This document shows positions 4,047 through 23,938 of a DNA stretch of 32,000 nucleotides, piece after piece. Each line of letters begins with the position of its first letter. The first letter of the stretch is position 1. The notes beneath the pieces were generated by a model. That model saw only the letters and a list, made by a program, of their open reading frames with translations, was not told where the DNA came from and made no database searches. A program made the translations under genes and the position numbers. This stretch comes from Candidatus Hadarchaeota archaeon (lineage in GTDB: Archaea > Hadarchaeota > Hadarchaeia > Hadarchaeales > Hadarchaeaceae): positions 753,063 to 785,062 of the forward strand of contig CAZETV010000001.1 of assembly GCA_964514965.1 (NCBI GenBank), in the 5' to 3' direction.

Positions 4047-4166
4047 AGGCATCTGAACCCGCCCCTGTCAAAAATTCGCTCAACACGGCCCAATGTCGCC
4101 GGCGGCCTTTCGCCACTTACCTCTGCGCATGCTGCTTCTGTCGGAAGTAACTTACTTTTTAGACAA

Positions 4167-4340: not shown

Positions 4341-4343
4341 CTT

Positions 4344-4445: not shown

Positions 4446-4594
4446 TCTCTAACCCTCCAAGCTTCCAATTAAACTTTGAAGAAACGTGCCTTTAATCTAT
4501 GCCCGAAACCGTCAAAAAATATCATTTATTCGACTATAAATAAACTAGGAATTAATAAACCAAGCAGATATGCGTTTCCAAGAATTCCCGCTTT

Positions 4595-9600: not shown

Positions 9601-10406
9601 TGCGTTCTCAAATATTCAACCATAGATTCCAGTATCAACTTGCCATCACCATACTTCGGAATTTCTTTCATCATCGTCCAGTTAGGGAGCTGAACTCCGT
9701 AATATGCCCGCTCGGGGTGAGGCATCAAACCAAAAATTGTCCCGCTAGGATCGCAAATACCAGCAATGTCGTGAAAAGCTCCATTCGGATTTATCGGGTA
9801 CTTCCCGTCAGCATATGCTCCCTTCTCATCACAATATCTAAACACAAGCTGGTCGTTCTCGTACAGTTCTTCTAGATAATTTTTCTCATTTTTCTTCGAG
9901 AAAACAAACCTGCCCTCACTATGTGCCACAGGCACGAAAAGTTTTTGTCCTTTTTGAAATTTTTTAGTAAATATGCATTTGCCACGATTTTCATGTTTTA
10001 AGTAAACCCATCTGCACTCATATTTCGCTGAGCAATTGATTGCTAAGGCCGCATCAGGATAATCGTTAATTCCCTTGAACCCTGGCAACAACCCAGTCTC
10101 GACCAATACTTGAAATCCATTGCATATCCCTAATATCGGCCTTCCCTCTTCGACAAACTTCCTTAACTCATTGGCGAGCTCGGTAGCAATCCACTTGCCC
10201 AAAATTGCCCCTGCCCGCACATAGTCGCCATATGAAAAACCGCCAGGAATGATGAGAGCGTCGTAATCTAAGATATTTTTGTCCTTTGCAAGATTGTTTG
10301 TATGAATTATCTCTGATTTTACGCCTAAATCGTCGAGCGCCGCCTTTGTCTCAACATCACAATTTGTTCCTCCAACACGCATAACACAAATTTTAATTTC
10401 TTTCAT
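9597..10406 (-). CDS. purQ: Phosphoribosylformylglycinamidine synthase, glutaminase subunit
   Basis: The triad is intact: GICNGFQ (Cys) and MPHPER (His/Glu). Confidence 0.9.
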   Translation of the reverse strand: MKEIKICVMRVGGTNCDVETKAALDDLGVKSEIIHTNNLAKDKNILDYDALIIPGGFSYGDYVRAGAILGKWIATELANELRKFVEEGRPILGICNGFQVLVETGLLPGFKGINDYPDAALAINCSAKYECRWVYLKHENRGKCIFTKKFQKGQKLFVPVAHSEGRFVFSKKNEKNYLEELYENDQLVFRYCDEKGAYADGKYPINPNGAFHDIAGICDPSGTIFGLMPHPERAYYGVQLPNWTMMKEIPKYGDGKLILESMVEYLRTH

Positions 10407-10409
10407 TTT

Positions 10410-12782
10410 TTAGCCCTCAAAAGTCTTTTTCCAAGCCTCTCTCAGCTTTGTCGACTCAATGTTCGCAACTCGCTTGCCTTTCAACCCATAGATGGAGAGA
10501 CAATTCTTTTCTTTCACGTAACCCACGGGGGAGCAAACATTACCTTTCATCAACTTTTCAAAATCCCGCTTGTGCTCCGCTTGAACTTCGATCAAGAATC
10601 TGCTGTTTGATTCAGAAAATAGGATAAAATCATCCCTCCCCATTGATGCAGGAACTTTTCTCAAATCCAATTCAAGTCCATAATCACTGCCGAGTGCCAT
10701 TTCGCTGGCTGCAATAGCAAGTCCACCTTCAGAGAGATCATGACAAGCTCTGACATACCCTCTATCAATCGCGTTCGTAATTGAAGTCATAATTTTTTTA
10801 GCTTGGGCCGTCTTGACTTTTGGGACTTTTTCACCAACAAAACCAAGAAGTTTGTAATACTCTGACCCACCCAACTCAGGATATGTTTCCCCAACGAGGT
10901 AAATCAAATCACCCGGCTTTTTCACGTCAATCGAAACGGTTTTCCTCACGTCCGGAATTATCCCGATCGCGGTTATCAAAAGTGTTGGTGTCACCGACCC
11001 AAGCGGGGATTCGTTGTAGAGACTATCTTTCCCCGAAATGAACGGTGTACCAAAGGCCTTGGCGAAATCGTAGCAAGCTTGGCATGCCCTAACGAGCGCT
11101 CCCAATCGATCCGGCCTTTCAGGATTACCCCACGTAAAGTTATCTAATACCGAGATCCTCCTCCCGCCAACCGCTATATTGTTCCTGATTGCCTCTTCTA
11201 AATTCGAAGCCACCATCCAGTAAGGGTCTATTTTTCCGTAGTTAGGGTTCATTCCACTTGAGATCACGACGCCTCTCCAAGAATCTCGCAAGGGCTTTAT
11301 AACTGCGGCATCATTCGGTCCGCTGTACTTGCCCTGCAGCGGCTTTAGAACTGTATTTCCTTGTACTTCGTGGTCGTAGGTTCTTACCACAGATTCCTTG
11401 GTGGCGATGTTTGGTGCTTTTAATAGCTTCAAAATGATCTTGGCTAAATTTTTCTCCTCTGCAAAACGCGGTTCAAAAAGTTTTGGCTTTTTCCACTTTG
11501 CCGTTCTCTTAATCATTGGTGGATTAAAAAGGAAGTCCAAATCCAAGTTTACGATATTGTGTCCACGATAATCAACCATGAGTTTGCTATCCCCGGTAAA
11601 TCTTCCGACTGCAGATGCCTCTACATCCTCACTAGCGAAAATATCTAAAACTTTTTGAAGGTTTTCCTTTCTAACTGTTAAAAACATTCTTTCTTGGGAC
11701 TCAGAAATCCAAATCTCCCAAGGAACCATGCCCGAATGTTTTAGCTGCACTTTTTCTAACTCAACGTGAAGACCACAATTAGACCTATCAGCCACTTCAC
11801 CAGCCGCACAGGATAACCCGCCGCCGCCCAAGTCGGTTATGCCCGATGCCAGCCCCTCGTCCCTTATTTGGGATATAGCCCGCCTCAACTTCTCTTCCTC
11901 AATTGGATTCGCGATTTGAACAGCTGGTCTCGAAACCTCCTCAGATTCTTTTGTCAGTTCAACAGACGCAAATGTAACGCCGTGAATTCCATCTCTACCA
12001 GTTTTCCCGCCAGCTAAAACAGCGACATCGCCAACTCTCGTATCTTTCACGTATTTACTAACTGGAAGGAGCCCCACGCAGCCGCAATAGACCACCGGGT
12101 TGCCAATATAGCTCTCGTCGAAGTAAATTGCTCCGTTAACCGTCGGTATTCCCATATTGTTCCCATAACTACCTATCCCGGCCACGACACCTCTGAACAA
12201 GTATCTTGGATGCTTTATTCCGGGTGGAAGTTTTTTGTAATCATAATCTAATGGACCGAAACAAAGCACATCCGTACCAGCTATTGGATTGGCCCAAACG
12301 CCGAGAATGTCTCTGATTACTCCACCCACACCAGTCGCCGCACCACCAAACGGCTCTATGGCTGATGGATGATTGTGAGTCTCGACTTTTGCGACTATTG
12401 CGTAGTCTCCTTCAAAATCAACGATACCTGCATTGTCCTCGAAAACCGAGACGCACCAAGGCAACGCGAGTTCTTTAGTAGCTTTCGCGATGTAGTCTTT
12501 AAACAATCTCACTTTGCGTTTTGCTATGGACACTTTTCCTTTGAAGGTTTTATGATAGCAGTGCTCAGACCAAGTTTGGCCGATGGTCTGGAGCTCGATG
12601 TTGGTGGGATTTCTTCCTCTTTTAGAGAAATATTCCCGGCATCGCTGCATCTCCTCAAGGTTTAAAACAAGCCCTAATTCTTGGCTGATTTCGAGAAGTT
12701 GCGCTTTATTAGCGTTCAGCAAGTCTAACTCGAACAGTTCAAATGGCAGACCTTCTCTCTTTACATAAAGATTGGAAATCAT
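10410..12782 (-). CDS. purL: Phosphoribosylformylglycinamidine synthase subunit II
   Basis: 790 aa with ETHNHPSAIEPFGGAATGVGGVIRD. ATGA overlap with purS. Confidence 0.95.
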   Translation of the reverse strand: MISNLYVKREGLPFELFELDLLNANKAQLLEISQELGLVLNLEEMQRCREYFSKRGRNPTNIELQTIGQTWSEHCYHKTFKGKVSIAKRKVRLFKDYIAKATKELALPWCVSVFEDNAGIVDFEGDYAIVAKVETHNHPSAIEPFGGAATGVGGVIRDILGVWANPIAGTDVLCFGPLDYDYKKLPPGIKHPRYLFRGVVAGIGSYGNNMGIPTVNGAIYFDESYIGNPVVYCGCVGLLPVSKYVKDTRVGDVAVLAGGKTGRDGIHGVTFASVELTKESEEVSRPAVQIANPIEEEKLRRAISQIRDEGLASGITDLGGGGLSCAAGEVADRSNCGLHVELEKVQLKHSGMVPWEIWISESQERMFLTVRKENLQKVLDIFASEDVEASAVGRFTGDSKLMVDYRGHNIVNLDLDFLFNPPMIKRTAKWKKPKLFEPRFAEEKNLAKIILKLLKAPNIATKESVVRTYDHEVQGNTVLKPLQGKYSGPNDAAVIKPLRDSWRGVVISSGMNPNYGKIDPYWMVASNLEEAIRNNIAVGGRRISVLDNFTWGNPERPDRLGALVRACQACYDFAKAFGTPFISGKDSLYNESPLGSVTPTLLITAIGIIPDVRKTVSIDVKKPGDLIYLVGETYPELGGSEYYKLLGFVGEKVPKVKTAQAKKIMTSITNAIDRGYVRACHDLSEGGLAIAASEMALGSDYGLELDLRKVPASMGRDDFILFSESNSRFLIEVQAEHKRDFEKLMKGNVCSPVGYVKEKNCLSIYGLKGKRVANIESTKLREAWKKTFEG

Positions 12783-13048
12783 TCGGTTCCCTTTATCTCA
12801 AACTTATAGTCATCTTTGATGGGGTTGGCAAGCAATTTCCTACACATCTCGTCCACTTGCTTTTTTGCTTCTTCTATCGAAGGCGCATCGAAATCGAGTT
12901 CGTATACTTTCACGACATCGACTCTTTTAACACCATATTTCAAATCTATCAAAGATTTCTTCGTCGCTTCCCCTTCTGGGTCCAAGTGACCTAGCTTAAG
13001 CCTGACCTCAACCCTGGCATGATAAGATTTAATTCTAAGTTTCTTCAT
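12779..13048 (-). CDS. purS: Phosphoribosylformylglycinamidine synthase subunit PurS
   Basis: 89 aa, sitting between purM and purL. It has a PurS-like sequence (VEVRLKLGHLDPEGEA...LANPIKDDYKFEI). Confidence 0.9.
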   Translation of the reverse strand: MKKLRIKSYHARVEVRLKLGHLDPEGEATKKSLIDLKYGVKRVDVVKVYELDFDAPSIEEAKKQVDEMCRKLLANPIKDDYKFEIKGTE

Positions 13049-13057
13049 ATGACCCCC

Positions 13058-14209
13058 CTAGCTCGTGTATTCAAACTTACCGAACTCGCTGCTGATTGTT
13101 AATCTATTCCTCCCGTCACTTTTTTCACATCTCCCAATTATTTTGGCTTCCAAAGCAAACTTTTCTGGAATGCTTAAAACTTCTTCCGCGTATTCTTCTT
13201 TTACCACAATCTCAAATCCTGTTCCCATGTTAAAATCCTCAAACATCGCCCGCCAGCTTTCCCCTGACTCTCGTTTAATCAGGCCGAATATGGGGTCGGG
13301 CTTTATGATATTGTCTTTAATGTAGTGGATATTTTTTCCAATCTTTAAACACTTCGTGTGTCCACCGCCTGTGTTGTGAACCAATCCGACTATATGCGTC
13401 CGATAAACATCTAAAATTTTTGCCACTACTGGCGCAAACAGTCGAGTAGGGGAGATTATCGCTTCCCCAACTGTCATCCCTAGCTCATCCAAATATTTAT
13501 CAAAAGCGAACCTGCCGTAATACTTTTTTTCATTCGAATCTTTAATTTCTGGGTACTTCCTTTCGCATTCTTTTTTCATCAAACAATGTCTCGTCAAAGT
13601 TATCCCATTACACATTATCCCGCTATTTCCGCGTTTCTCGTACTTTGTCTTACCACCACTTCTCAGACCAATGATAACATCACCTGGTTTGATTTTGCCC
13701 CCATTTATTACCTCTGACAATTTAACGCGGGCGCTTATCGTGCCCGAAACATCCAATGTTCGGAGCTGGTCGGGTAGGTCGGCTGTCTCACCGCCTAGGA
13801 ACGATATTTTTATCCCGTGCCTTTTCAGCACCCCAAAACATTTTTTAAATCCAGAATTAAGCGCGGCGAGAAATTCTTTCCTCGGAACTCTGAATGTATT
13901 TATCGCAACATAATCGACGAACCCAATAGCTTGAGCGCCAACGCAGATGGTATCATCTATGTTCATCGCCACGACATCTTGGGCGACACTTTCAAACCAC
14001 TTGAATTCACCTGTTTCTTTCCAGTGGAGATAGTTTTGGATAGGTTTACTTCCAGCACCATCGGTATGTAAAAGTATCCCATATCCACGTAACTGAGGGT
14101 CTTTGCCCACGACACAGAAAGCTTGCGGGAAGAGATTCTGCACGGTCGCCCTGAAGGTTTCGATACCTCTTTTTCGCACATCCACGCCGATTTCAGAGTA
14201 TTTCGACAT
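13058..14209 (-). CDS. purM: Phosphoribosylformylglycinamidine cyclo-ligase (AIR synthase), long variant
   Basis: TDGAGSK, VAMNIDD, GGETADLP, PTRLF and HNTGGG align with PurM motifs. It has an insertion of roughly 30-40 aa relative to E. coli PurM. Confidence 0.85.
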   Translation of the reverse strand: MSKYSEIGVDVRKRGIETFRATVQNLFPQAFCVVGKDPQLRGYGILLHTDGAGSKPIQNYLHWKETGEFKWFESVAQDVVAMNIDDTICVGAQAIGFVDYVAINTFRVPRKEFLAALNSGFKKCFGVLKRHGIKISFLGGETADLPDQLRTLDVSGTISARVKLSEVINGGKIKPGDVIIGLRSGGKTKYEKRGNSGIMCNGITLTRHCLMKKECERKYPEIKDSNEKKYYGRFAFDKYLDELGMTVGEAIISPTRLFAPVVAKILDVYRTHIVGLVHNTGGGHTKCLKIGKNIHYIKDNIIKPDPIFGLIKRESGESWRAMFEDFNMGTGFEIVVKEEYAEEVLSIPEKFALEAKIIGRCEKSDGRNRLTISSEFGKFEYTS

Positions 14210-14218
14210 AATCGACCC

Positions 14219-15106
14219 CTATAGTTTAATTTCTCCGGCCCCCTTTGTTGCAATCTTTGTCGCTATCAAAGTATTGCACAGCAACATCACGCGCGTCATG
14301 GGCCCTACGCCACCCGGCACCGGAGTGATGTAGGACGCTTTTTCCATCACGCTTTCAAAATCGACATCACCATGCAACTTGCCCCCAACGTAATTCATGC
14401 CCACATCGACAACGACAACGCCCTCCTTCACCATCCCCCCTCTGACTACAAAGTTCGGACGTCTGCCTACCGCGCTGATCAAAACATCAGCTGCTAGGAT
14501 ATGTTTTTCCAGCCCCTGAGTTTTTGAGTGGCAAACGACAACTGTGGCATTTCGATCTAAGAACAATTTTGATAGCGGCTTGCCCACGAGATCGCTTCGG
14601 TTAATTATCACTGCAAGTTTACCTGCGAGTTCGATTCCATAGTGATCAAGCAACTTTACTATACCCTTAGGTGTGCATGGTAACAATTCATTATCAGAAT
14701 CATACATACCTAACCAAAGCTTCCCCACGTTGTAAGGGTGCAACCCATCCACATCTTTTTGAGGATTTATGCGAACTGTCACTTTTTTCTTATCAATTTG
14801 AGGAGGGAGGGGCAACTGCACGAATATTCCGTGAACTTTACGCTCCTTGTTTAGCTCATCGACTAGTTCAAGGATTTTCTGCTCAGCTGTTAATGCCGGA
14901 AGCTCGTAGAGCCTGAAATCAATGCCGACCTCATCACAATCCTTGCCCTTTCCTTTAACATAAATTCTTGAAGAAGGATCATCGCCGACCAATATGGTGG
15001 CTAGGGTTGGAGTTATACCCCTTTCTTTTTTAAAAACTTCCACATGCGATGCAATATCTCGCTTAAACTTTTCTGCGAGAGCCTTGCCGTCCATTATCAC
15101 TGCCAT
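14219..15106 (-). CDS. folD: Bifunctional methylene-THF dehydrogenase / methenyl-THF cyclohydrolase
   Basis: ILVGDDPSSRIYVKGK, DVDGLHP and PVPGGVGPMT motifs. Confidence 0.9.
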   Translation of the reverse strand: MAVIMDGKALAEKFKRDIASHVEVFKKERGITPTLATILVGDDPSSRIYVKGKGKDCDEVGIDFRLYELPALTAEQKILELVDELNKERKVHGIFVQLPLPPQIDKKKVTVRINPQKDVDGLHPYNVGKLWLGMYDSDNELLPCTPKGIVKLLDHYGIELAGKLAVIINRSDLVGKPLSKLFLDRNATVVVCHSKTQGLEKHILAADVLISAVGRRPNFVVRGGMVKEGVVVVDVGMNYVGGKLHGDVDFESVMEKASYITPVPGGVGPMTRVMLLCNTLIATKIATKGAGEIKL

Positions 15107-15218
15107 AAACCCACACGCAAGATTTTTGCAGTTATCTCAATATAATCTATTGCCCACAGCGTATAGCATCAAGGTGAATTTCTGAGTCTAAAATAGAAGC
15201 CATTTATAGCTATAATGT

Positions 15219-16676
15219 TCAAAATTCAGGGGTGTGCATCTTTCCGAGCCTATCCCTGTATTTCAGAAGGATTGGTTTGGCGACTTCTTTCACGAATTTT
15301 TCACATCGCTCACGAGCGTCGCCCAAATGTTCAGTCGGATCTAACAGCCTGTCAATCTCCTCTCCGCTCAATTTAGAGCTTATCGTCCGGTCTTGTTTCA
15401 ACAACTGAGGCAATGGGTTTTCCTCACCTATCATTACCCGCTCCCAAGCTTTGAATGAGAGTTCGCGAAGTTTCTCATGCATTTGCTGTCTGTGCCCACC
15501 TCGCTCGACGAGTTTCATCAAAATCGCTTCCGTCCCTGAAAATGCTCCATATTTTTCAAGGTTCCGCTTCAGGATTACGGGATAAATTCTAACATCCCGC
15601 ACCACTCGATCGTAAAGCATTAAACATTCGTCGGTGGCCAAGAAGCCTTCGGGTATAACAATTCTTCTATTCGCTGAGTCGTCCAAAGTTCGCTCGAAAA
15701 TTGTCTGCGCTGCATTTTCCCACACAACCCTCGGTAGCGTACCAACGTACCTTGCTAACGAGCACATCCGCTCGGCAGTCACAGGATTTTTCTTAAAAGG
15801 CATTGCAGAAGAGCCAACTCTGGTCTCTTTCATCGGTTCAGACATCTCTCCATATGCAGGAGATTGCATGTGCCTCAAATCAAGACCAAACTTATGCGTA
15901 CTCTGCACAATGCTGGCCAACAGCGACAAAACCATGTAATCGAGCTTTCGTGGGTAGGTTTGAGTCGAGACGGAGTACGTTTTTAACCCCAGTTTTTGCA
16001 TCACATCTTTTTCGAGATCGGCGGATTTGCCTTTGCGTCCCAACAATCTCTGAAAACTCGCAGAAGTTCCGATCGCCCCTTTTATCCCCCTTCCCTTCAT
16101 TAAGTTTTCTAGCAGATTTTCCACGTTATAAATGTCCAAGACGATATCTTGAGCATAATTCGCAAATCGATAACCTAGAGTTGTAGGTACCGCTGGCTGT
16201 AGATGTGTCCAGCCGATGCATGCCAAATCCTTGTACTTCGTTATATGTTTAGATAAAGAATCCAAACAATTGGTCAACCTTGTTAAAATTACGTCAAAAG
16301 CGGCTTTCATCCTCAGAACATCCGCGTTGTCCTCAATATCCATCGATGTCGCGCCAAGATGAATTTTACCGCCGCCGATCGGGCATTGCTCGGCATATGC
16401 TTTAATCTCCGCCATCAAATCGTGCCCGATCTCTCTCTCAATCTCGTGAGCCCTTTTCAAATCAACGTGTTCTGGACCCATTTTAGATTTTAAATCAGCC
16501 AATTCTTTCCGAGTAACAAGACCGTATTTTGATTGAGCTTCGGCAAGAGCCACCCAAATTTTCCTCCATGTCGCCCTATAATTGATTTCAGAAAAAATCT
16601 TTCTCATCTCAGGACTACCGTATCGCCATGTAAATGGGGAAAGGAAAGTCCCATAATCAAATTTTTCGGTCCTCAT
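15219..16676 (-). CDS. purB: Adenylosuccinate lyase
   Basis: 485 aa of the fumarase/ASL superfamily, with the GSSAMPFKKNP signature loop. Confidence 0.9.
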   Translation of the reverse strand: MRTEKFDYGTFLSPFTWRYGSPEMRKIFSEINYRATWRKIWVALAEAQSKYGLVTRKELADLKSKMGPEHVDLKRAHEIEREIGHDLMAEIKAYAEQCPIGGGKIHLGATSMDIEDNADVLRMKAAFDVILTRLTNCLDSLSKHITKYKDLACIGWTHLQPAVPTTLGYRFANYAQDIVLDIYNVENLLENLMKGRGIKGAIGTSASFQRLLGRKGKSADLEKDVMQKLGLKTYSVSTQTYPRKLDYMVLSLLASIVQSTHKFGLDLRHMQSPAYGEMSEPMKETRVGSSAMPFKKNPVTAERMCSLARYVGTLPRVVWENAAQTIFERTLDDSANRRIVIPEGFLATDECLMLYDRVVRDVRIYPVILKRNLEKYGAFSGTEAILMKLVERGGHRQQMHEKLRELSFKAWERVMIGEENPLPQLLKQDRTISSKLSGEEIDRLLDPTEHLGDARERCEKFVKEVAKPILLKYRDRLGKMHTPEF

Positions 16677-16854
16677 GCCCTCACCGAATCAACCATTCTT
16701 CGCTCTTAGCCTCTTTAACCTTAGCGGAGAATTGAAAAATCTAGAGCTATCCAGCACTGGAGTATTGGGTCAAAAACTCAATTCAAAGAGTGCACTCCAT
16801 AACTACTATTATTCTTACCATATTTTTGAAAATTGGTTCTCCACGCACCGATGG

Positions 16855-16862
16855 TTATAAAT
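16855..16862 (+). promoter_or_regulatory. TATA-like box upstream of purE
   Basis: TTATAAAT lies about 25-30 nt upstream of the ATG at 16887. No SD is visible, which would fit a leaderless or short-leader archaeal transcript. Confidence 0.35.
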
Positions 16863-16886
16863 CTCGCCACCAGAAAATATCAACGA

Positions 16887-17369
16887 ATGTCGCAAAAAGT
16901 CGTTATCCTGTTTGGCTCCAAGGTGGATGTCGATTTCGCCAAACCACTGAGGCGCACGTTGCAAGAGTTTGGAATAAATTTTGACCAATGGATCACTTCG
17001 GCTCACAAGACGCCAAAAAAGGTACTAGAAATATTGAGAGAATACGAAAAGTCCGAAGATGAATTGATCTACATAACGGTCGCTGGCAGATCAAATGCTC
17101 TTTCGGGTGTAGTCGATGCGAATACTAAATTTCCCGTAATAGCGTGCCCGCCATGTTCTGAAAGATTAAGTATCGATATCTACTCGTCGTTACGTATGCC
17201 AAGCGGTGTTGCCCCCCTTGTTCTTTTGGACCCCGAAGCTGCAGCTCTGGCGGCTGCGAAAATCTTGGCATTGGATAATGAGAAACTTTCAAAGAAAATT
17301 ACAAACTATCAAAGTCAAATGAAGAAAAAAATAGAAGCCAACAACAAAACGCTTAGACGCAAAAATTAA
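16887..17369 (+). CDS. purE: AIR carboxylase, class II PurE
   Basis: ATG at 16887 gives MSQKVVILFGS... The motifs SAHKTP, VAGRSNALSGVV, FPVIACPP and SSLRMPSG match class II (metazoan PAICS-type) PurE. They do not match class I SAHRTP/AGGAAHLPG. Confidence 0.9.
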   Translation: MSQKVVILFGSKVDVDFAKPLRRTLQEFGINFDQWITSAHKTPKKVLEILREYEKSEDELIYITVAGRSNALSGVVDANTKFPVIACPPCSERLSIDIYSSLRMPSGVAPLVLLDPEAAALAAAKILALDNEKLSKKITNYQSQMKKKIEANNKTLRRKN

Positions 17370-17399
17370 TTTGAGATGTTGACCGGCGCATCCAATCGA

Positions 17400-17415
17400 T
17401 TTTTAAAGGAAAAAA
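17400..17415. terminator. Back-to-back oligo-T tracts between the convergent purE and purF-like genes
   Basis: T5 on the + strand (17400-17404) lies after the purE stop. A6 (17410-15), which is T6 on the - strand, lies 15 nt after the purF-like stop. This is the archaeal style of oligo-T termination. Confidence 0.35.
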
Positions 17416-17429
17416 GCATTACTCTATTT

Positions 17430-18842
17430 TTAAGCTTTCCGAAACGGGTCTGCTATAGATTTGCCAGCCCATACATACAGGCAAAGACGCTCTTTGGGAA
17501 GCCCGATAGCCTTTATCATGTCATCCAATTTTTGATATCTTAATGAAGTAACATTCAACTCTTTGGCAATATAATTTACCATTTTCTTATACTTCTTTGA
17601 ATTTGGATCAATATATTCATCAACATTTTCAATATCTCTTCCTTCAATGACTTTTATAGCGCGGCGAGCGGCCAATTCTTCCATCCTCCTTGTTGAATAA
17701 TCGAACACGCTCGGGAACAATAGGGGTGGGCAAGCTATGCGTAAGTGAACTTTTTTTGCTCCATTATCCCACAATTTTTGTACAATATTTCTTAACTGGG
17801 TGCCTCTTACTATCGAATCATCACAGAGAATAATTCTTTTTCCTTCAATCAACTCTTTAATCGGGATTAATTTCATCCTCGCAACCAACTCTCTTGTCTC
17901 TTGAGAGGGCGGTGTATAACTCCTGTCGTACCCGGGGGTATACTTAACCAGCGGTCTCCTAAAAGGAATTTTTGACTCCAATGAATAGCCGATAGCATGA
18001 GTAGTACCTGAATCCGGAATACCAGCGACCATATCTGCCTTGACGTTATCATTCTTCGCCAGATATCTTCCACACCTCTCTCTGACAATTTCTACATTTA
18101 TTCCCTCATAGGAAGAAGCTGGAAATCCTGAATAAATCCATAAAAAGCTGTTTATTTGGCCTATGGTTGTACCTTTCTGCTTTTGACCAATCCCTGAAGG
18201 GGTGAGTAAGACTATTTCTCCAGGCAAAAGATATTTCTTAATTTTAAAACCTAGATTAAAAAAAGATGAACTCTCGGAAGTTACTGCCCAAGAGCCTCTC
18301 TTTTGCCCAACAATAAGAGGACTATAACCAAACTTATCCCTAACAGCATAGATGCCCTCTTTATTGAGCAGAAGAAGCGAACAAAAACCCCTAATCTTGC
18401 CAAACATGTGATTAATTCCTTCCACAATGGTCTTTCCCTCTGCAATGAGCTTAGCAACAAGTTCAGTAGAATTCACGCCTGCGCCGGTTATCTCACTGAA
18501 CGAGATGCCTTTTTCACGTAATTCGCTGGCCAGCTCTTCGGCATTTTGTATTAAACCGGTTGAACATATGCAGAACTGACCAAATTTTGAATCCAAACAA
18601 ACGGGTTGTATTTCTCTAGAGGTGATTACGCCGATCCCGCTATTTCCATGCATAGTCTTGTAATCATCATAAAATTTTGACTTGAACTGACTCTACCCCA
18701 ACGTGTGGATACTTCTTACAATCCTCTCCCCCAAAACTGCTAGGCCGCCATATTCCGTGCCCAAGTGGGAGAGATAGTCTGTGCCGTGAAATAGATTTTC
18801 CGAACAATCCTGCCGAGAGATTACCCCAAAAATTCCACTCAT
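17430..18842 (-). pseudogene. purF: Amidophosphoribosyltransferase (PurF)-like gene interrupted by an in-frame TAG, with a degenerate glutaminase domain
   Basis: My translation from ATG 18842 is MSGIFGVISRQDCSENLFHGTDYLSHLGTEYGGLAVLGERIVRSIHTLG. A TAG follows at 18693-18695, then SQFKSKFYDDYKT. The reading frame continues into the 407-aa track ORF (17430..18653, MHGNSGIG...). The N-terminus aligns to PurF MCGIxG...LQHRGQxxAGI. The C-terminal half has an intact PRPP motif, ILCDDSIVRGTQ. Confidence 0.7.
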
Positions 18843-18859
18843 TTTGATCCACTCATTTT
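18834..18859 (-). repeat. Tandem duplication of the purF-like start region (AAAATGAGTGGA x2, 14-nt period)
   Basis: The forward strand has tccactcatttt at 18834-18845 and again at 18848-18859. This creates a second upstream ATG at 18856. Confidence 0.8.
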
Positions 18860-18883
18860 AATCTTCCATAAAATAGTTTAAGA

Positions 18884-20281
18884 CTATGTTTTCAGGAGTT
18901 CTTCCACATGCTTTTTGCTTCTGTTTATGTATTCTGGGAGAGCTATGTCTTCTCTGTGTCTCAAAGGACCATCTATTTTTCTAATTCCTTCCATGGAGAT
19001 TTCTCTAGCTTCATCCAATGTGTTTGATATCCCCACCACCGCAACAGCTCTGGAACTTAAAGCATGAAAACCTCCATTTCTCAGTTCCATCGCCCCTGGA
19101 TAAATTCTCAAATTATCTCCGTACTTTTCCTTTAATTTTTCAGCTTTGTTTAGATCTAGTTTTTTAGGACCCGAGTAACTTACGTATCCCCCATATTCCA
19201 GAGGAACTGCGTAAGTCACAACTGTTGCTTTATCTTCAAAATCGAGTTTTATTAAATTACCATCTAAAATTTTGAAGCAAACGTCAACAAAATCATCTTT
19301 CAAAATTGGCAGGATATTCATTACTTCCGGGTCGCCCCATCTGCTGTTTATCTCAAGGATTTTTACACCACTTTTTGTGGTTATGTAAGCCATGTATAGA
19401 TTTCCTCTAACTCCCAGGTTTTTTTTGGCCTTCTTTAACCCATCATGAATCTTCTCTCCTATCTTCAGCGATTCTCTCCAATCGCTTTCATTCATGAACG
19501 GGAGCAAATTTTCTCTATCCTTGTAAGAACCCATCCCCCCAGTGTTTGGTCCTAGATCCCAGTCAAAGGCCCTCTTGTAATCTCTGACAGCGGGAGTGGA
19601 AACCAAATGCTCTCCATCGGAAACAAACTGTAAAGAAAACTCTTCTCCCTCTAACTTTTCCTCGACTATTACTGCTCCCTTTTCAAAACTCGGCAAAAAA
19701 TAATCCTCAAACAAACTTTCTCTAGATGCGAAATGGTCTCCCCAGACGCCAACCCCTTTTCCTGTTGCTGGTGCATCGGGCTTTACAGCTACTTCGTTTC
19801 CAATTTCATTCAACCACTTGTATACCTCTTTTTTAACTTCAGTCTTTGTACCATAATCGCTGGGATCGAAGACCTTGAATCTCGGATTGGCAGAAGGAAC
19901 TATTTCCTCTATTAATCTTCTCTGTTCGACTTTGCTTCTCTCGATAAAATATTCGGCTGTTGGACATATCATTTTTATCTTTGTTTCTTTTTCGATTCTA
20001 TCTCTAATCCCGTTCATGCCCGGGGCTTCAGGACCGAACACACCGAAGTCGATTTCATTTTCATGTTTCTTAGCAAATTTGGTGATATCATCTACATTTA
20101 AATTTGGAATTACGAAATGTTCCCCTCCAGTTTCTTCCGCCTTTTTTATATTGTAAGGATTTCCCTGCTTGTCTGCTATGAAGAGTTTTACCTCATGATT
20201 ACTTCTGGAAAGGGAATCCGCCATGCAAGCGAACCTACTCCCATAACTTATACCTAAAACTCCCACCGCCAACTTTGACAC
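18884..20281 (-). CDS. purD: Phosphoribosylamine-glycine ligase
   Basis: ATP-grasp protein with VKPDAPATGKGVGV and RDYKRAFDWDLGPNTGGMGSY (canonical form DHKR..GPNTGGMG). GTG start. Confidence 0.9.
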   Translation of the reverse strand: MSKLAVGVLGISYGSRFACMADSLSRSNHEVKLFIADKQGNPYNIKKAEETGGEHFVIPNLNVDDITKFAKKHENEIDFGVFGPEAPGMNGIRDRIEKETKIKMICPTAEYFIERSKVEQRRLIEEIVPSANPRFKVFDPSDYGTKTEVKKEVYKWLNEIGNEVAVKPDAPATGKGVGVWGDHFASRESLFEDYFLPSFEKGAVIVEEKLEGEEFSLQFVSDGEHLVSTPAVRDYKRAFDWDLGPNTGGMGSYKDRENLLPFMNESDWRESLKIGEKIHDGLKKAKKNLGVRGNLYMAYITTKSGVKILEINSRWGDPEVMNILPILKDDFVDVCFKILDGNLIKLDFEDKATVVTYAVPLEYGGYVSYSGPKKLDLNKAEKLKEKYGDNLRIYPGAMELRNGGFHALSSRAVAVVGISNTLDEAREISMEGIRKIDGPLRHREDIALPEYINRSKKHVEELLKT

Positions 20282-20283
20282 CT

Positions 20284-21003
20284 CTAAACCGTTTTAATCC
20301 ACTTTTTCCCATTCTTGACATAAACATTTTTGTCAAAGTCGATGGCGAACATTCCCTTTGATAACATTTCAAGAGTTTTCCTGTAAGCAGGGCCGTCACA
20401 TTTTTCTTTCATAAGCTTTTGCTGTTCCTCTGGACTTCTATTTTCTACCGGTAATCCCTCGGATACGAAGAGGATGGGCCCGTGGTCTGGTTTTTCGTCC
20501 ATTATATGGATGGTGGACCTCGTGATTTTATCACCGGATTTTATTTGCTCTTCGACCGCGTTACTTCCGGTATATTTTCTCTTCCCCCCTTCTTTTATCC
20601 TTAAATCTGCAGGATGTACGTTTAGAACCTTAGCTGGAAATCCGTTCAACAACTTTGTCAAAATATACATGTAACCAGAGCATGCGATTATATCTGGCTC
20701 CCACTTTTTTATAATTGACAAAAGTTTTTCATCGTAGGCCTCCCTAATCTTCATGTCCTTAATTGGTTTGCCCCCATAGAAATCGTAGATATCCACCACT
20801 TCTACAGGTATACCTAACTCCTCAACCATTTTTATTCCAGAAGCATTTTTATTTGAAGAAATAGCTCCGACGACTTCGTATCCTTCGCCCCCGACCATGA
20901 AAGGAACAGCACTGGCACCTCCAGAAAAAAGCACGACAATCCGCATTTTTCTATCTTTTTTTGGTTCGTATATCAGCTTCAACTTTTGATTCATATCTAC
21001 CAA
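20284..21003 (-). CDS. purN: Phosphoribosylglycinamide formyltransferase-like (formyltransferase fold)
   Basis: IVVLFSGG, LNVHPADL and MDEKPDHGPIL correspond to the PurN Asn/His/Asp catalytic positions. There is an insertion (RIKEGGKRKYTG). The start is uncertain: TTG 21003, ATG 20994 or ATG 20946. Confidence 0.75.
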   Translation of the reverse strand: MVDMNQKLKLIYEPKKDRKMRIVVLFSGGASAVPFMVGGEGYEVVGAISSNKNASGIKMVEELGIPVEVVDIYDFYGGKPIKDMKIREAYDEKLLSIIKKWEPDIIACSGYMYILTKLLNGFPAKVLNVHPADLRIKEGGKRKYTGSNAVEEQIKSGDKITRSTIHIMDEKPDHGPILFVSEGLPVENRSPEEQQKLMKEKCDGPAYRKTLEMLSKGMFAIDFDKNVYVKNGKKWIKTV

Positions 21004-21193
21004 TGAAATTTTTTACTGTTCTTTTTAATCTATCTATACTCCCCCCCGCAAGTAGCTTTTTCTCTCGTTACCTAATCCTTGTTGAAAGCGATTAGAAGGA
21101 GTGGAGCGAGTAGAACCCTGTTATTTTTACTAATCTGCTGGAGCACTGAATTAACAAATAACTTTATTAAGTATATCCCACTTAAGGCTGAAG

Positions 21194-22810
21194 GTGGTTT
21201 GTTTGACGGAAAGAGTCTCTAAAGATTCTTCCTACCTGAATGCTTCTTCTTCAACTAATACGAGAACTCGCGTGAGAGATGTAAGCCCGACGAGCGGGAT
21301 GTGTCCAATCTGTATCAAGGAGTGCCCCTTTCTCTGTGAAATTAGCCTTTCCGCTTTTCGCGGACGTGAAGTTCTTTATCCAGTACCCAAGCAATTTGGG
21401 CTCAGCACTGCGGCATCTTTAAAGAACTACGGCCTAGATTGGTCCCATATAAACATTCTTTCGGGGCTTAGGGGAGCCAGCGGTATTGAAGAAGATTCTG
21501 ATATGGCAACTTTTCCCAACGTGAATATCAAGTCCGACCTAGGTGGGATTCCTCTCAAACTTCCACTTGTAAACGGCGCATTTGGCTCCACAAATGTCGC
21601 GGGTGAAAATTGGGATGGTCTCGCGATTGGGGCAGCTCTAGCTGGTGTAATCCTGGTTGTTGGAGAGAATGTCTGTGGAATGGATCCAAACGCTAAGTTC
21701 GCCAATGAAAAATTAACTCATTCAAAAGATATGGAGTATAGGGTTAAGAAGTTTAGAGAGTTTTGGGATGGGAAACATGGTGATATTGCCGTCCAAACCA
21801 ACGTGGAAGACCAAAGGCTTGGCGTAGACGTTTATGCTATTTCCAAGCTTGGAGTCAATGTGATTGAGCGAAAGTGGGGCCAAGGAGCGAAAGTAATAGG
21901 TGGAGAGGTAAGGCTTCCTAATCTAGAACGGGCACTCACACTGAAAAAACGGGGCTACATAGTCCTCCCGAACCCGGATGACCCAACCGTTCAAGAGGCC
22001 TTTAAAGCAGGGGTATTCAAGAGCTTTGAACGACACAGCCGGGTGGGGATGCCGGCTGAAAGAGAATTTGTTGAAGATGTAGAATGGTTGAGGGAACAGG
22101 GCGCAAAAAAAGTAACTTTAAAAACGGGGGCTTACCGCCCCTCCGATGTGGCGTGGACAATGAAAGTAGCTTCCGAAGCCAAAGTTGATTATGTCACTTT
22201 CGACGGCGCTGGTGGTGGCACAGCTATGAGTCCAGTGCCAATGATGAACGAGATGAGTACTCCAACAGTTTATCTTGAAGCGCAGATACTCAAGTGTGTC
22301 CAAATTTTGAAGCAGAAGGGTCGATATGTTCCAGATATCAGCATGGCAGGTGGTTTCATCAACGAGACTCAGATTTTCAAGAGTATCGCGATGAGTAACT
22401 TTGGAGACGGGCCGATAATCAAGGCGATAACTATAGCTAGGGCACCTCTTACCGCAGTTATGAAGGCTACTTACTTCATGGAATTGGCTGAACAGAAAAA
22501 GTTGCCTCGCGATTTCGCTGAGCAATACGGTACAGATCCCGCGAAATTCTTCATCACAGCACCAGAGTTGAATAAGAAATATGGTAGTAAGTCCAAGAAT
22601 ATCCCGTTACCAGCTATAGGACTCTACACATATCTCATTGACCGAATTGGAGTTGGACTCCAACAGTTGATGGCGGGAGCACGAAAGTGGAAAATAGAGT
22701 TGTTAGACAGAAGCGACCTAATATCACTAACAGAAAGAGCATCAAAAGTTACTGGAATTCCGATGCCTGACGATTTCGAGGCCGATGTGATCGAACAAAT
22801 CTTGGAGTGA
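21194..22810 (+). CDS. Glutamate-synthase FMN-domain-like protein with an N-terminal Cys cluster (Fe-S?), function unknown
   Basis: KWGQGAKVIGGEV and FDGAGGGTAMSP resemble the GltS FMN-domain motifs QGAKPGxGG and DGxxGGTGAxP. The N-terminus has CPICIKECPFLCE (CX2CX3CX3C). The start is uncertain: GTG 21194, TTG 21203 or ATG 21299. Confidence 0.7.
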   Translation: MVCLTERVSKDSSYLNASSSTNTRTRVRDVSPTSGMCPICIKECPFLCEISLSAFRGREVLYPVPKQFGLSTAASLKNYGLDWSHINILSGLRGASGIEEDSDMATFPNVNIKSDLGGIPLKLPLVNGAFGSTNVAGENWDGLAIGAALAGVILVVGENVCGMDPNAKFANEKLTHSKDMEYRVKKFREFWDGKHGDIAVQTNVEDQRLGVDVYAISKLGVNVIERKWGQGAKVIGGEVRLPNLERALTLKKRGYIVLPNPDDPTVQEAFKAGVFKSFERHSRVGMPAEREFVEDVEWLREQGAKKVTLKTGAYRPSDVAWTMKVASEAKVDYVTFDGAGGGTAMSPVPMMNEMSTPTVYLEAQILKCVQILKQKGRYVPDISMAGGFINETQIFKSIAMSNFGDGPIIKAITIARAPLTAVMKATYFMELAEQKKLPRDFAEQYGTDPAKFFITAPELNKKYGSKSKNIPLPAIGLYTYLIDRIGVGLQQLMAGARKWKIELLDRSDLISLTERASKVTGIPMPDDFEADVIEQILE

Positions 22811-22836
22811 CTGCTAAAAAGAGTGAAGGTAACCGG

Positions 22837-23775
22837 ATGTTCGAACCTCAGAAATTTCTTGAGGAAAAAGTTGAGTGGCTTAAGATTAACATAGGGAATA
22901 AAAAGGCGGTTGTGGCAATTTCGGGCGGTGTGGATAGCTCCGTAACGACGATGCTGGGACACCACGCGGTCGGTGATAGGTTAACAGCTGTCTTCCTTGA
23001 CGATGGATTGATGAGGAAGGGAGAGCCAGAGCAAGTGGTTGATTGTTTCAAGCAATTGGGAGTAAATATCAAACTTTACGACGTGAGCGGCGAGTTCTTT
23101 AAAGCACTTAAAGGCCTAACGGACCCGGAAGAAAAAAGGAAGGCGTTTAGAGAAACGTTCTATAGAGTTTTCGGCGGAATTGCGCGTGAGTTGGGAGTAG
23201 AGTACTTACTACAGGGCACTATAGCTGCAGATGTAGCGGAAACCAAAGCTGGCATTAAGACCCAACACAATGTTTTAGAGCAGATCGGGATTCATCCGCT
23301 CGAAAAGTATGGTTTTAAAGTTTTGGAACCTCTGAAGGACATCTACAAGCCAGAGGTTCGCGAAGTTGCTAAAATGCTGGGGCTGCCAGCTGAAATCCAA
23401 GAACGAAGGCCTTTCCCAGGCCCTGGCCTCTCGATTAGGATCCTAGGTGAAGTAACTCCCGAAAAAGCAGATTTGGTGAGGAAAGCCACGGAGATTGTAG
23501 AAGAAGAGACCAAAGACACTCCGTGTTTCCAAGCATTTGCGATAGCAATGGGCGACAAAGCGACCGGAGTTACTACGGATAGAGAGAGAAAGTACGGAGA
23601 AATAATAGTGATTCGAGTAGTGCAATCAAAGGATGCCGTGACCGCAAAATCTGTTGAGCTACCATGGCAGGTGTTGAAGCGAATCGAGGGGAGAATAAGA
23701 GAAAAAATCCCGACAGTCACCCGCGTTCTTTACGATTTAACTGACAAGCCTCCGGCGACAATAGAGTACGAATAA
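22837..23775 (+). CDS. guaA: GMP synthase subunit B (ATP pyrophosphatase)
   Basis: MFEPQKFLEE..KAVVAISGGVDSSV P-loop, DPEEKRK, FPGPGL and C-terminal PPATIEYE. ATG at 22837 with GAAGGT 6 nt upstream. The track start GTG 22807 overlaps the upstream stop. Confidence 0.9.
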   Translation: MFEPQKFLEEKVEWLKINIGNKKAVVAISGGVDSSVTTMLGHHAVGDRLTAVFLDDGLMRKGEPEQVVDCFKQLGVNIKLYDVSGEFFKALKGLTDPEEKRKAFRETFYRVFGGIARELGVEYLLQGTIAADVAETKAGIKTQHNVLEQIGIHPLEKYGFKVLEPLKDIYKPEVREVAKMLGLPAEIQERRPFPGPGLSIRILGEVTPEKADLVRKATEIVEEETKDTPCFQAFAIAMGDKATGVTTDRERKYGEIIVIRVVQSKDAVTAKSVELPWQVLKRIEGRIREKIPTVTRVLYDLTDKPPATIEYE

Positions 23776-23938
23776 CGTGATTTATCCAATCCAAATTCTT
23801 GATATCAATCATTAGAATTCAGAAGAAGGGAGTAAAGGGTCTCATCGATGTAGGGGGCAAACCAAGTGGAGGAATACATCCCAGAATTACCGATAACGAA
23901 AACCTTTATTTCTCCTTGATTATCTGGACTTTGGGTAC

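What the first reader, a model, noticed from the sequence alone, without database searches (positions are those of the whole stretch)
17430..18842. PurF-like gene with Ser in place of the N-terminal Cys nucleophile, degenerate glutaminase residues and an in-frame amber codon
Reading the minus strand from ATG 18842 gives MSGIFGV..., where the canonical Ntn amidotransferase start is MCGIFG. Ser is encoded by AGT at 18837-18839. The other glutaminase signature positions also differ: LQHRGQ->LSHLGT, HVRY->GVIT, HNGN->STGL and SDTE/SDSE->NSTE. These correspond to PurF Arg, Asn-Gly and Asp residues as I recall them. The PRTase half is well conserved (DDSIVRGT). Codon 50 is TAG (18693-18695). The frame then continues uninterrupted into the 407-aa track ORF. 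The TAG aligns with a hydrophobic residue of PurF (GLV), one substitution from TTG. There are three possibilities. It may be a decaying pseudogene. It may be a split or re-initiated protein starting at ATG 18653. Or it may be an ammonia-dependent PRA synthase whose dead glutaminase domain is being shed. It is the only step-1 candidate in an otherwise complete purine cluster.
Basis: partly seen in the sequence, partly recalled or inferred. Interest (0 to 1): 0.75.

Follow-up and report, generated by a model that had tools for sequence, protein, structure and literature searches.

The report
Cys-less PurF paralogue with nonsense mutation
This is a member of a large, conserved family of PurF-like enzymes that never have the glutamine-splitting cysteine (a class first noted in 2011), it sits in the step-1 slot of a Hadarchaeota purine gene cluster, and in this one genome it carries a very recent CAG-to-TAG stop mutation.

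Summary
On the minus strand, ATG 18842 opens MSGIFGV…, codon 50 (18693-18695) is TAG, and the frame continues into the 407-aa ORF. All glutaminase catalytic residues are replaced and the PRTase motifs are intact. The interpretation needs correcting. Ser-for-Cys and the other substitutions are not decay. They define a very large family (Hadarchaeota, Omnitrophota, Planctomycetota, gut Bacteroidales): none of the 119 closest relatives has Cys. The N-domain is under strong purifying selection, so it is not being shed. Brown et al. 2011 described such Cys-less paralogues (PurF′) in Crenarchaeota and proposed ammonia-dependent PRA synthesis, which remains untested. The TAG is unique to this genome. 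All eight other Hadarchaeota orthologues are intact and read CAG (Gln) there, not a hydrophobic codon. TAG is an ordinary stop in the window (8 of 26 genes). dN/dS upstream of the stop is about 0.1, so the mutation is very recent. An independent assembly of the same run reproduces it. In Hadarchaeota this is the only purF-like gene in the cluster. In some bacteria it lies beside a canonical purF. Verdict: a new member of a known, uncharacterised kind, carrying an ordinary nonsense lesion.

The parts
17430..18842 (-). Whole purF′-like reading frame: 470 codons including the internal TAG, with terminal TAA at 17430-17432
   Evidence: TIGR01134 purF scores 195.9 bits over residues 3-400, below the 350-bit cutoff. 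It is 89% identical to the intact 471-aa orthologue P0001.
18696..18842 (-). Codons 1-49 upstream of the stop: MSGIFG… with Ser2 (AGT 18837-18839) in place of the Cys nucleophile and LSHLGT in place of LQHRGQ
   Evidence: dN/dS for codons 1-63 against intact orthologues is 0.10-0.125. In the model of the intact orthologue P0001, this stretch forms strands at 3-9, 31-37 and 41-47 and a helix at 14-22.
18693..18695 (-). In-frame TAG at codon 50, derived from CAG (Gln) by one C>T transition
   Evidence: DNA alignments: the window reads GGG TAG AGT where L002 and L006-L012 read AGA/AGG/AGT CAG AGT/ACC. The independent Logan assembly L001 has the identical sequence.
17430..18653 (-). 407-aa ORF as annotated (P0002), starting at Met64. 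It holds the rest of the Ntn-fold N-domain and the complete PRTase domain
   Evidence: PDSG is at residues 276-279 and DDSIVRGT at 341-348 (nt 17799-17822). Both motifs are invariant or nearly so across the family.
18847..18854 (-). Shine-Dalgarno-like GAGTGGAT, 5-12 nt upstream of ATG 18842. This supports 18842 as the native start
   Evidence: Read from the sequence. Orthologues have GAGAGGGT, GAGATGGT or GAGGCTGG at the same place.
18884..20281 (-). purD immediately upstream. It ends in TAG, so TAG functions as a stop in this genome
16833..17369 (+). purE, convergent with and downstream of purF′. Part of the conserved Hadarchaeota synteny purN-purD-purF′-purE-purB-folD-purM-purS-purL-purQ
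9597..25477 (.). Purine cluster around the gene: purQ, purL, purS, purM, folD, purB, purE, purF′, purD, purN, a 538-aa ORF, the guaA ATP-PPase subunit and purH. purC starts at about 31549 (+) and runs off the window

Best explanation
The gene encodes a PurF′-type protein. This is a two-domain homologue of glutamine-PRPP amidotransferase with a complete PRTase catalytic domain and a conserved N-terminal Ntn-fold domain that cannot bind or hydrolyse glutamine.

In Hadarchaeota it occupies the purF slot of the purine cluster and is the only purF-like gene seen there. I infer that it makes phosphoribosylamine from PRPP and free ammonia. E. coli PurF Cys1 mutants are reported to do this. In that scheme the dead N-domain would be kept for folding, oligomerisation, loop closure or regulation.

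In this particular genome a single C>T change turned Gln50 (CAG) into TAG. The change is real in the reads that two assemblers used. It is evolutionarily very recent and is not a recoding event. This copy is therefore most likely a freshly inactivated allele, or at best one rescued by low-level readthrough. Nothing suggests a designed split gene.

Shown: family membership, the residue substitutions, synteny, the origin of the TAG, and purifying selection. Inferred: ammonia-dependent PRA synthesis, and loss of function in this strain.
For: Family and fold.
- The gene belongs to a large family of intact 464-475-aa orthologues at 63-89% identity.
- None of the 119 has Cys at position 2. Arg26 is Leu or Met, Arg73-Tyr74 is Ile-Ser and Asp127 is variable. 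PDSG and (D/E)DSIVRGT are invariant.
- The full PurF fold is predicted with pLDDT 88 and TM 0.85 to 1GPH/1AO0.
- The Cys-less signature spans dozens of 50%-identity clusters. Canonical PurFs appear only at 38% identity or less.

Context.
- All eight Hadarchaeota loci share the synteny purN-purD-purF′-purE-purB… with no canonical purF in about 20-50 kb.

Literature.
- C1A/C1S E. coli PurF is reported to lose Gln-dependent but keep NH3-dependent activity. PurF′ was proposed to be ammonia-dependent (PMC3261824).

The TAG.
- It replaces CAG, which all eight orthologues carry.
- TAG is the stop of 8 of 26 genes in the window.
- The Logan assembly of SRR14802574 matches the window over 7224 nt, including the TAG.
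- dN/dS is 0.13 overall and 0.10-0.12 for codons 1-63.
- The window copy has only 8 departures from conserved columns, against 4-14 in intact relatives.
Against: - No biochemical data exist for any member, as far as my searches found.
- In at least six bacterial loci the paralogue sits next to a canonical purF: L004 in tandem with a 4-nt overlap, and L024, L029, L053, L078 and L082 as purF-purM-purF′. There it is not a simple replacement. It could be a regulatory partner or catalyse something else.
- Most bacterial copies are not in pur operons.
- A canonical purF elsewhere in the 1.03-Mb contig or the MAG could not be excluded.
- The strong conservation of the N-domain hints at a function beyond being a scaffold.
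- The two assemblies probably derive from the same read set, so they are not independent biological samples.
Confidence: 0.6

Rival explanations
1. The TAG is a sequencing or consensus artefact, or a minority allele, and the organism's gene is intact with CAG.
For: The gene shows no other lesion. Selection statistics cannot be told apart from those of intact orthologues. All eight relatives are intact. The NCBI contig and the Logan contig appear to come from the same sample.
Against: Two different assemblers give identical sequence over 7.2 kb. A 51-kb k-mer-based contig implies accurate reads with repeated support for the TAG k-mers. The neighbouring codon also differs from relatives (GGG against AGA), so this is a genuinely diverged lineage rather than a single isolated odd base.
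Confidence: 0.15
2. The TAG is decoded, either as pyrrolysine or by a suppressor or programmed readthrough. Alternatively, the gene works as a split or re-initiated protein (a 49-aa peptide plus the 407-aa product from ATG 18653).
For: The frame stays open through the stop, and codons 1-63 are still under purifying selection in pairwise comparisons. An in-frame ATG lies 13 codons downstream of the TAG.
Against: - TAG terminates 8 of 26 genes here, including purD just upstream.
- No tRNA gene lies in the window.
- The position is an unremarkable Gln, Gly or Ser in relatives.
- No orthologue is split.
- The 407-aa product would lack strands 3-9, 31-37 and 41-47, helices 14-22 and 53-62, and the invariant F53, K54 and F57.
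- No new Shine-Dalgarno-like motif precedes ATG 18653. That sequence is constrained by the conserved YDDY codons.
- Low dN/dS is equally explained by the mutation being recent.
Confidence: 0.07
3. At family level, PurF′ is not a PRA synthase. It may be a catalytically silent regulatory or structural partner of canonical PurF (a pseudoenzyme), or a PRPP-dependent transferase for a different nucleophile. If so, Hadarchaeota would have their real purF elsewhere.
For: - It is paired with canonical purF in tandem or within an operon in six bacterial loci. L004 has a 4-nt overlap that suggests translational coupling.
- The N-domain carries its own invariant motif set (GTDY-SHLGT, FK-KF, GIGVIS, N124, K131, C154), which is not needed for a mere scaffold.
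- Bacterial neighbours are varied: DUF1846, CarB and HisG.
- In Crenarchaeota, PurF′ always accompanies PurF.
Against: - The PRTase catalytic motifs and the flexible-loop residues (RSYxxPxQxxR…KL) are invariant. A pure pseudoenzyme would not need them.
- In eight Hadarchaeota loci and in Omnitrophota L005 it is the only purF-like gene inside an otherwise full pur operon.
Confidence: 0.3
4. One reading: an old decaying pseudogene, or a glutaminase domain in the process of being lost.
For: A premature stop lies in the N-domain, and the glutaminase residues are non-canonical.
Against: - The non-canonical residues are fixed family traits.
- N-domain conservation is 0.79 against 0.87 for the PRTase core, and residues 1-63 score 0.82.
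- dN/dS is about 0.13.
- There are no frameshifts or further stops.
- All relatives keep the full-length domain.
Confidence: 0.03

Closest known systems
PurF′ of Crenarchaeota (Brown, Hoopes, White and Sarisky 2011, Biol Direct 6:63, PMC3261824)
   Same: It is a two-domain PurF homologue without the N-terminal Cys nucleophile, encoded among purine genes. The proposed, still untested function is ammonia-dependent PRPP aminotransferase.
   Different: Crenarchaeal PurF′ has Ala or Val at the nucleophile position and always accompanies a canonical PurF nearby. The Hadarchaeota protein has Ser (Gly or Asp in some relatives). It is 63-68% identical to bacterial Omnitrophota and Planctomycetota proteins, which suggests inter-domain transfer. 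No canonical purF was seen within 20-50 kb. Whether the two groups form one clade was not tested. Representatives with MAG…FYQQHLGE starts, about 35% identical, may be the crenarchaeal type, but their organisms are unnamed.
Canonical glutamine-PRPP amidotransferase PurF (EC 2.4.2.14; B. subtilis 1AO0/1GPH, E. coli 1ECF)
   Same: The overall fold matches (TM 0.82-0.85). So do the PRPP loop DDSIVRGT, the PDSG motif and the flexible-loop motif. Bacterial members also keep the four Cys ligands of the B. subtilis-type [4Fe-4S] cluster.
   Different: Cys1, Arg26, Arg73/Tyr74 and Asp127 are all replaced. In the Hadarchaeota clade Asn101 is also replaced, and three of the four Fe-S ligands are lost (N231, S378, V457). 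The TIGR01134 score is 196 against a cutoff of 350.
E. coli PurF Cys1 mutants (C1A, C1S; Mei and Zalkin 1989, as cited in PMC3261824)
   Same: Loss of the nucleophile abolishes glutamine use but leaves NH3-dependent PRA synthesis. This is the mechanistic precedent for a natural Cys-less enzyme.
   Different: Those are laboratory point mutants with an otherwise intact glutamine site. Here the whole site has been remodelled and then conserved.
Mlab_0150 of Methanocorpusculum labreanum (Ser-for-Cys PurF duplicate)
   Same: An archaeal PurF-like protein with Ser at the nucleophile position.
   Different: It is described as a recent duplicate of that organism's own canonical purF. It is not a member of a widespread separate family.

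Membership tests
Canonical PurF (glutamine-PRPP amidotransferase, TIGR01134) | N-terminal Cys nucleophile (Cys1 after Met or propeptide removal) | tested here: not met
   Ser2 in the window. Among 119 relatives: 109 Ser, 6 Gly, 3 Asp and 0 Cys.
Canonical PurF (glutamine-PRPP amidotransferase, TIGR01134) | Glutamine-binding and oxyanion residues Arg26, Arg73/Tyr74, Asn101-Gly102 and Asp127 | tested here: not met
   These positions read Leu27, Ile-Thr with a deletion, Thr95-Gly96 and Ser125 in the window. The replacements hold across the family, except that bacterial members keep Asn-Gly.
Canonical PurF (glutamine-PRPP amidotransferase, TIGR01134) | Type I PRTase domain with PRPP loop (DDSIVRGTT), PDS motif and flexible loop | tested here: met
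   PDSG 276-279, DDSIVRGT 341-348 and RSYTPPSQETR…MKL are invariant or nearly invariant.
Canonical PurF (glutamine-PRPP amidotransferase, TIGR01134) | Score at or above the curated equivalog cutoff | tested here: not met
   195.9 bits against a cutoff of 350.
Canonical PurF (glutamine-PRPP amidotransferase, TIGR01134) | Two-domain PurF fold | tested here: met
   AF2 model of orthologue P0001: pLDDT 88.2, and Foldseek TM 0.85 to 1GPH/1AO0.
PurF′ (Cys-less PurF paralogue, Brown et al. 2011) | PurF homologue lacking the N-terminal Cys | tested here: met
PurF′ (Cys-less PurF paralogue, Brown et al. 2011) | Encoded among purine biosynthesis genes | tested here: met
   It lies between purD and purE in the window and in seven other Hadarchaeota loci.
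PurF′ (Cys-less PurF paralogue, Brown et al. 2011) | Accompanies a canonical purF close by in the same genome | tested here: not met
   No canonical purF was found in the 32-kb window, the 51-kb Logan contig or the ±10 kb flanks of seven Hadarchaeota loci. The feature is met in six bacterial loci. The rest of the genome could not be searched.
PurF′ (Cys-less PurF paralogue, Brown et al. 2011) | Falls in the same phylogenetic cluster as crenarchaeal PurF′ | not tested
Candidate representatives carried no organism names.
PurF′ (Cys-less PurF paralogue, Brown et al. 2011) | Ammonia-dependent PRA synthesis (hypothesised function) | not testable with these tools
   This needs an enzyme assay or complementation.
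Pyrrolysine-encoding or otherwise reassigned TAG | TAG avoided as a stop; pylT/pylS present; the position conserved as TAG in orthologues | tested here: not met
   TAG ends 8 of 26 genes. No tRNA lies in the window. Orthologues have CAG. Whether pyl genes exist elsewhere in the genome is not testable here.

The most novel reading that the evidence does not exclude
Hadarchaeota, and some Omnitrophota such as L005, run de novo purine synthesis with a glutaminase-dead PurF′ as their only step-1 enzyme. That would be a natural ammonia-dependent phosphoribosylamine synthase, acquired by inter-domain transfer and having displaced canonical PurF. The same uncharacterised family is abundant in Planctomycetota and in gut Bacteroidales, and its remodelled, strongly conserved N-domain would have a new role (ammonia entry or gating, or allostery).
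Probability: 0.35. Interest if true: 0.6.

Novelty: new member of a known kind. Interest (0 to 1): 0.35.

Why it matters
Automated annotation names these proteins 'amidophosphoribosyltransferase'. That name implies glutamine use, which the sequences rule out.

If PurF′ is the sole step-1 enzyme in Hadarchaeota, the first committed step of purine synthesis in a cosmopolitan subsurface archaeal phylum would depend on free ammonia. The PurF′ hypothesis of 2011 would then have a clean natural test case, plus a very large bacterial family to test it in.

The TAG has a practical consequence. Annotating the 407-aa ORF as a gene is misleading. It is the tail of an interrupted 470-codon gene, and this strain may be a purine auxotroph or carry a segregating null allele.

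Tried and rejected
- **TAG reassignment or pyrrolysine:** rejected. TAG ends 8 of 26 genes, there is no tRNA in the window, and orthologues have CAG.
- **Assembly error specific to the NCBI contig:** made unlikely by the identical Logan contig.
- **Long-term pseudogenisation:** rejected by the conserved-column counts and by dN/dS.
- **'Domain being shed':** rejected by the domain conservation figures.
- **TAG derived from TTG or a hydrophobic codon:** rejected by the DNA alignments.
- **Literature searches for any characterised Cys-less PurF:** terms covered Hadesarchaea, Omnitrophota, PurF-like, paralog with catalytic cysteine, and ammonia-dependent. They returned only Brown et al. 2011.
- **Naming the organisms of the more distant Cys-less subgroups** (looking for the crenarchaeal PurF′ type): mostly no names were returned. 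Only Muribaculaceae was named, for the MGGFFG subgroup.
- **Promoter and terminator scan of the locus:** nothing above chance.
- **Searching for a canonical purF in the Hadarchaeota genomes as a whole:** not possible. Only ±10 kb flanks and the 51-kb contig could be read. I judged a further database search with a heterologous canonical PurF unlikely to be conclusive and did not run it.
Full report
**1. The observation**

Reading the minus strand from ATG 18842 gives MSGIFGVISRQDCSENLFHGTDYLSHLGTEYGGLAVLGERIVRSIHTLG. A TAG follows at 18693-18695 (codon 50). The frame then continues without further interruption to TAA at 17430-17432.
- The mechanical ORF list shows only the 407-aa ORF 17430..18653, which starts at Met64.
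- Pfam finds GATase_7 and a weak Pribosyltran match.
- NCBIfam TIGR01134 (purF) matches residues 3-400 at 195.9 bits, far below its 350-bit cutoff.
- The match begins at residue 3, so the 49 codons upstream of the TAG are homologous to PurF and belong to the gene.

**2. The glutaminase site**

phmmer against PDB sequences gives B. subtilis PurF (1AO0/1GPH) as the best hit at E = 4e-50, and E. coli PurF at 1e-24. In that alignment:
- Cys1 is Ser2.
- LQHRGQ is LSHLGT, so Arg26 becomes Leu.
- The Arg-Tyr of GHVRY falls in a deletion after GIGVIT.
- HNGN is STGL, so Asn becomes Thr.
- SDTE is NSTE, so Asp127 becomes Ser.
- VPDS, the flexible-loop motif and DDSIVRGT are retained.

**3. These are family traits, not decay**

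A search of the 5.8-billion-protein collection returned thousands of hits. The best 120 are nearly all full-length proteins of 464-475 aa at 63-89% identity, annotated 'amidophosphoribosyltransferase' in Hadesarchaea and Omnitrophica MAGs. In the alignment of 119 relatives:
- Position 2 is Ser in 109, Gly in 6, Asp in 3 and never Cys.
- Arg26 is Leu or Met in all.
- Arg73-Tyr74 is Ile-Ser in essentially all.
- Asp127 is variable.
- PDSG and (D/E)DSIVRGT are invariant.

An exhaustive HMMER search of 1.84 billion cluster representatives with the intact orthologue P0001 showed how far the family extends.
- The Cys-less signature ([SGTA]-G-[ILF]-F-G … G-T-D-Y-x-S-H-L-G-T … G-I-G-V-I-S) spans dozens of 50%-identity clusters, from 59% down to about 36% identity.
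- Canonical PurFs (Cys, QHRGQE, HVRYST, HNGN) appear only at about 35-38% identity.
- One subgroup (MGGFFG…) comes from Muribaculaceae, and another cluster has 3295 members.

So the Ser1 orthologues do form a clade, and it is very large.

The N-domain is not being lost.
- Its mean column conservation is 0.79, against 0.87 for the PRTase core.
- Residues 1-63 score 0.82, with 33 of 63 columns at least 90% conserved.
- An AlphaFold2 model of P0001 is confident (pLDDT 88.2, pTM 0.87). It superposes on B. subtilis, Arabidopsis and E. coli PurF with TM 0.82-0.85.

**4. The TAG**

- The closest relatives read …HTLRQSQFKSKF… where the window reads …HTLG*SQFKSKF….
- At DNA level the window has ACG TTG GGG TAG AGT CAG. 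All eight other Hadarchaeota orthologues (L002, L006-L012) have CAG at that codon. The stop therefore arose by one C>T transition from Gln, not from TTG or another hydrophobic codon.
- TAG is the normal stop of 8 of 26 genes in the window, including purD immediately upstream. No tRNA gene lies in the window.
- The exact 407-aa product is on record from only two contigs: the 1.03-Mb NCBI contig and a 51-kb Logan contig assembled from run SRR14802574.
- The Logan contig is identical to the window over 7224 nt, including the TAG. Its gene caller also produced a 49-aa ORF plus a 407-aa ORF.

**5. How old is the lesion?**

- The window copy departs from columns that are at least 90% conserved at 8 positions. 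Intact Hadarchaeota relatives depart at 4-14 positions; P0001 has 11.
- Nei-Gojobori dN/dS between the window and its four closest intact relatives is 0.13-0.16 overall. It is 0.10-0.125 for codons 1-63 and 0.13-0.17 for codons 64-470.
- Comparisons among intact genes give 0.14-0.29.
- There are no frameshifts and no further stops.

The nonsense change is therefore very recent, or tolerated, or an error. It is not part of a long decay.

A functional split looks unlikely.
- The 407-aa product would lack strands 3-9, 31-37 and 41-47 and helices 14-22 and 53-62.
- Even a two-piece assembly would lack residues 50-63, which include the invariant F53, K54 and F57.
- No in-frame start codon lies between the TAG and Met64 (read from the sequence).
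- The bases before ATG 18653 are the conserved YDDY codons, not a new ribosome-binding site.
- The native start has a Shine-Dalgarno-like GAGTGGAT, as orthologues do.

**6. Genomic context**

- The window is an archaeal nucleotide-biosynthesis island. It holds pyrD, pyrK, pyrC, pyrB, pyrI, pyrF and pyrE; then purQ, purL, purS, purM, folD, purB, purE, purF′, purD and purN; then a 538-aa ORF, the guaA subunit and purH; then carB and carA, DUF711 and an ACT protein; and the start of purC.
- Extending along the Logan contig adds purC and purP at one end, and an M28 peptidase and Cdc6 at the other. There is no canonical purF in 51 kb.
- A scan of species-representative genomes found 392 relatives. 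Among the best 80 are seven Hadarchaeota loci. All have purN-purD-purF′-purE-purB-folD-purM-purS-purL-purQ, an intact purF′ and no canonical purF within ±10 kb.

In bacteria the picture differs.
- In L004 (JGI metagenome contig; an operon related to that of the Omnitrophica MAG L005) purF′ overlaps by 4 nt a downstream canonical purF. That gene has a propeptide followed by CGLFGI, QQHRGEE, GHTRYST, AHNGN, CDSE and CVAC.
- In five Planctomycetota loci the order is purF-purM-purF′.
- In L005 (Omnitrophica WOR_2 MAG) purF′ is the only purF-like gene in the pur operon.
- Most other bacterial copies are outside pur operons. Their neighbours include DUF1846 (15 loci), carB (12) and hisG (6).

**7. 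What is known**

Brown et al. 2011 (PMC3261824) reported the following.
- Every crenarchaeon they studied has PurF plus a second cluster of proteins, 'PurF′'.
- PurF′ lacks the N-terminal Cys (often Ala or Val) and lies near purF and other pur genes.
- They proposed that it is an ammonia-dependent PRPP aminotransferase.
- They cite Mei and Zalkin 1989 for the finding that E. coli PurF C1A/C1S loses glutamine-dependent but keeps ammonia-dependent activity.

I found no later characterisation. The kind is therefore known but untested. The Hadarchaeota, Omnitrophota and Planctomycetota clade is a further, very large set of members. I did not test whether it shares a clade with the crenarchaeal PurF′.

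**8. Mechanism I commit to**

- Shown: the protein has an intact PRTase active site and a conserved Ntn-fold domain that cannot hydrolyse glutamine.
- Inferred, at about 45% confidence: it condenses PRPP with free NH3 to give PRA, and serves as the step-1 enzyme in Hadarchaeota.
- The main rival, at about 30%, is an accessory or regulatory role beside a canonical PurF, as the bacterial tandem arrangements suggest.
- For this genome, the most likely state is a real, very recent null allele or a segregating variant (about 75-80% combined). An artefact is at about 15%, and recoding or a functional split at about 7%.

**9. Verdict**

The Ser1 and 'dead glutaminase' features are genuine. They define a known but biochemically uncharacterised class, so they are neither decay nor a new invention of this locus. 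The in-frame TAG is an ordinary lineage-specific nonsense substitution. Interest is moderate (0.35). The worthwhile lead is the family, and whether it is the sole PRA-forming enzyme in Hadarchaeota. The stop codon itself is not the lead.

Noticed in passing
window 21194-22810 (+): A 538-aa ORF sits between purN and the guaA ATP-PPase subunit and overlaps the latter by 4 nt. It has only a weak Glu_synthase FMN-domain match (E 1e-6), no NCBIfam hit, and a Cys-rich N-terminus (CPICIKECPFLCE). tblastn found it in none of the other seven Hadarchaeota loci.
   Followed up: partly
window 18832-18857 (-): The 11-nt string AAATGAGTGGA occurs twice, 14 nt apart. The downstream copy contains the purF′ start codon. 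The upstream copy creates an out-of-frame mini-ORF (MSGSK*) across the Shine-Dalgarno region. Relatives read AAAGAGAGGG or AAATGAGATGG there.
   Followed up: no
alignment A2, query residues 231, 378, 454, 457 (window about 18150, 17709, 17481, 17472): 99 of 119 family members (the bacterial type) keep four Cys at the positions of the B. subtilis PurF [4Fe-4S] ligands. The Hadarchaeota clade, including the window, has Asn, Ser, Cys and Val there. It has apparently lost the cluster, and Asn101 is Thr as well.
   Followed up: partly
L004 4233-15773 versus L005 5636-16327: These are two related operons, L005 from an Omnitrophica MAG. L004 has PurS-fused purL, purQ, purF′ and canonical purF. L005 has a shorter purL without PurS, no purQ, and only purF′. 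This may point to a wholly ammonia-dependent version of both amidotransferase steps, or the missing genes may lie elsewhere.
   Followed up: partly
bacterial loci, e.g. L075 8412-9929 and L075 5119-8328: A DUF1846 protein (PF08903 plus PF20921, about 505 aa, function unknown) lies directly upstream of purF′ (median gap 57 nt) in 15 bacterial loci. carB lies upstream of it in 12. A hisG gene follows purF′ in 6 loci.
   Followed up: partly
L086 7130-8521 and window 23939-25477: The same genome encodes both PurP (DUF1246/DUF1297, next to purC just beyond the window) and a full-length PurH. It therefore has both known routes for AICAR formylation.
   Followed up: no
representatives P0164, P0187, P0189, P0205, P0208: An intermediate PurF group keeps the Cys nucleophile and LQHRGQ but has GIGHVS and FSGN in place of HVRYST and HNGN. 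It scores closer to the Cys-less family (36-41% identity) than typical PurFs do, and may be an evolutionary intermediate.
   Followed up: no
L003 6463-6807: A free-standing LAGLIDADG_1 homing-endonuclease ORF (114 aa) lies immediately upstream of purN in Hadesarchaea MAG GCA_030616305.1.
   Followed up: no
L017 (JAIWAR010000001.1): An 87-kb contig binned as Methanosarcinales carries a bacterial-type purF′ (66% identity to the query) with no pur genes detected around it. This could be mis-binning or another inter-domain transfer.
   Followed up: no
window 4047-4594: About 550 bp between pyrD and pyrK hold no convincing ORF. The longest open stretch is 71 aa, and the Logan gene caller places a 57-aa ORF there.
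   Followed up: no
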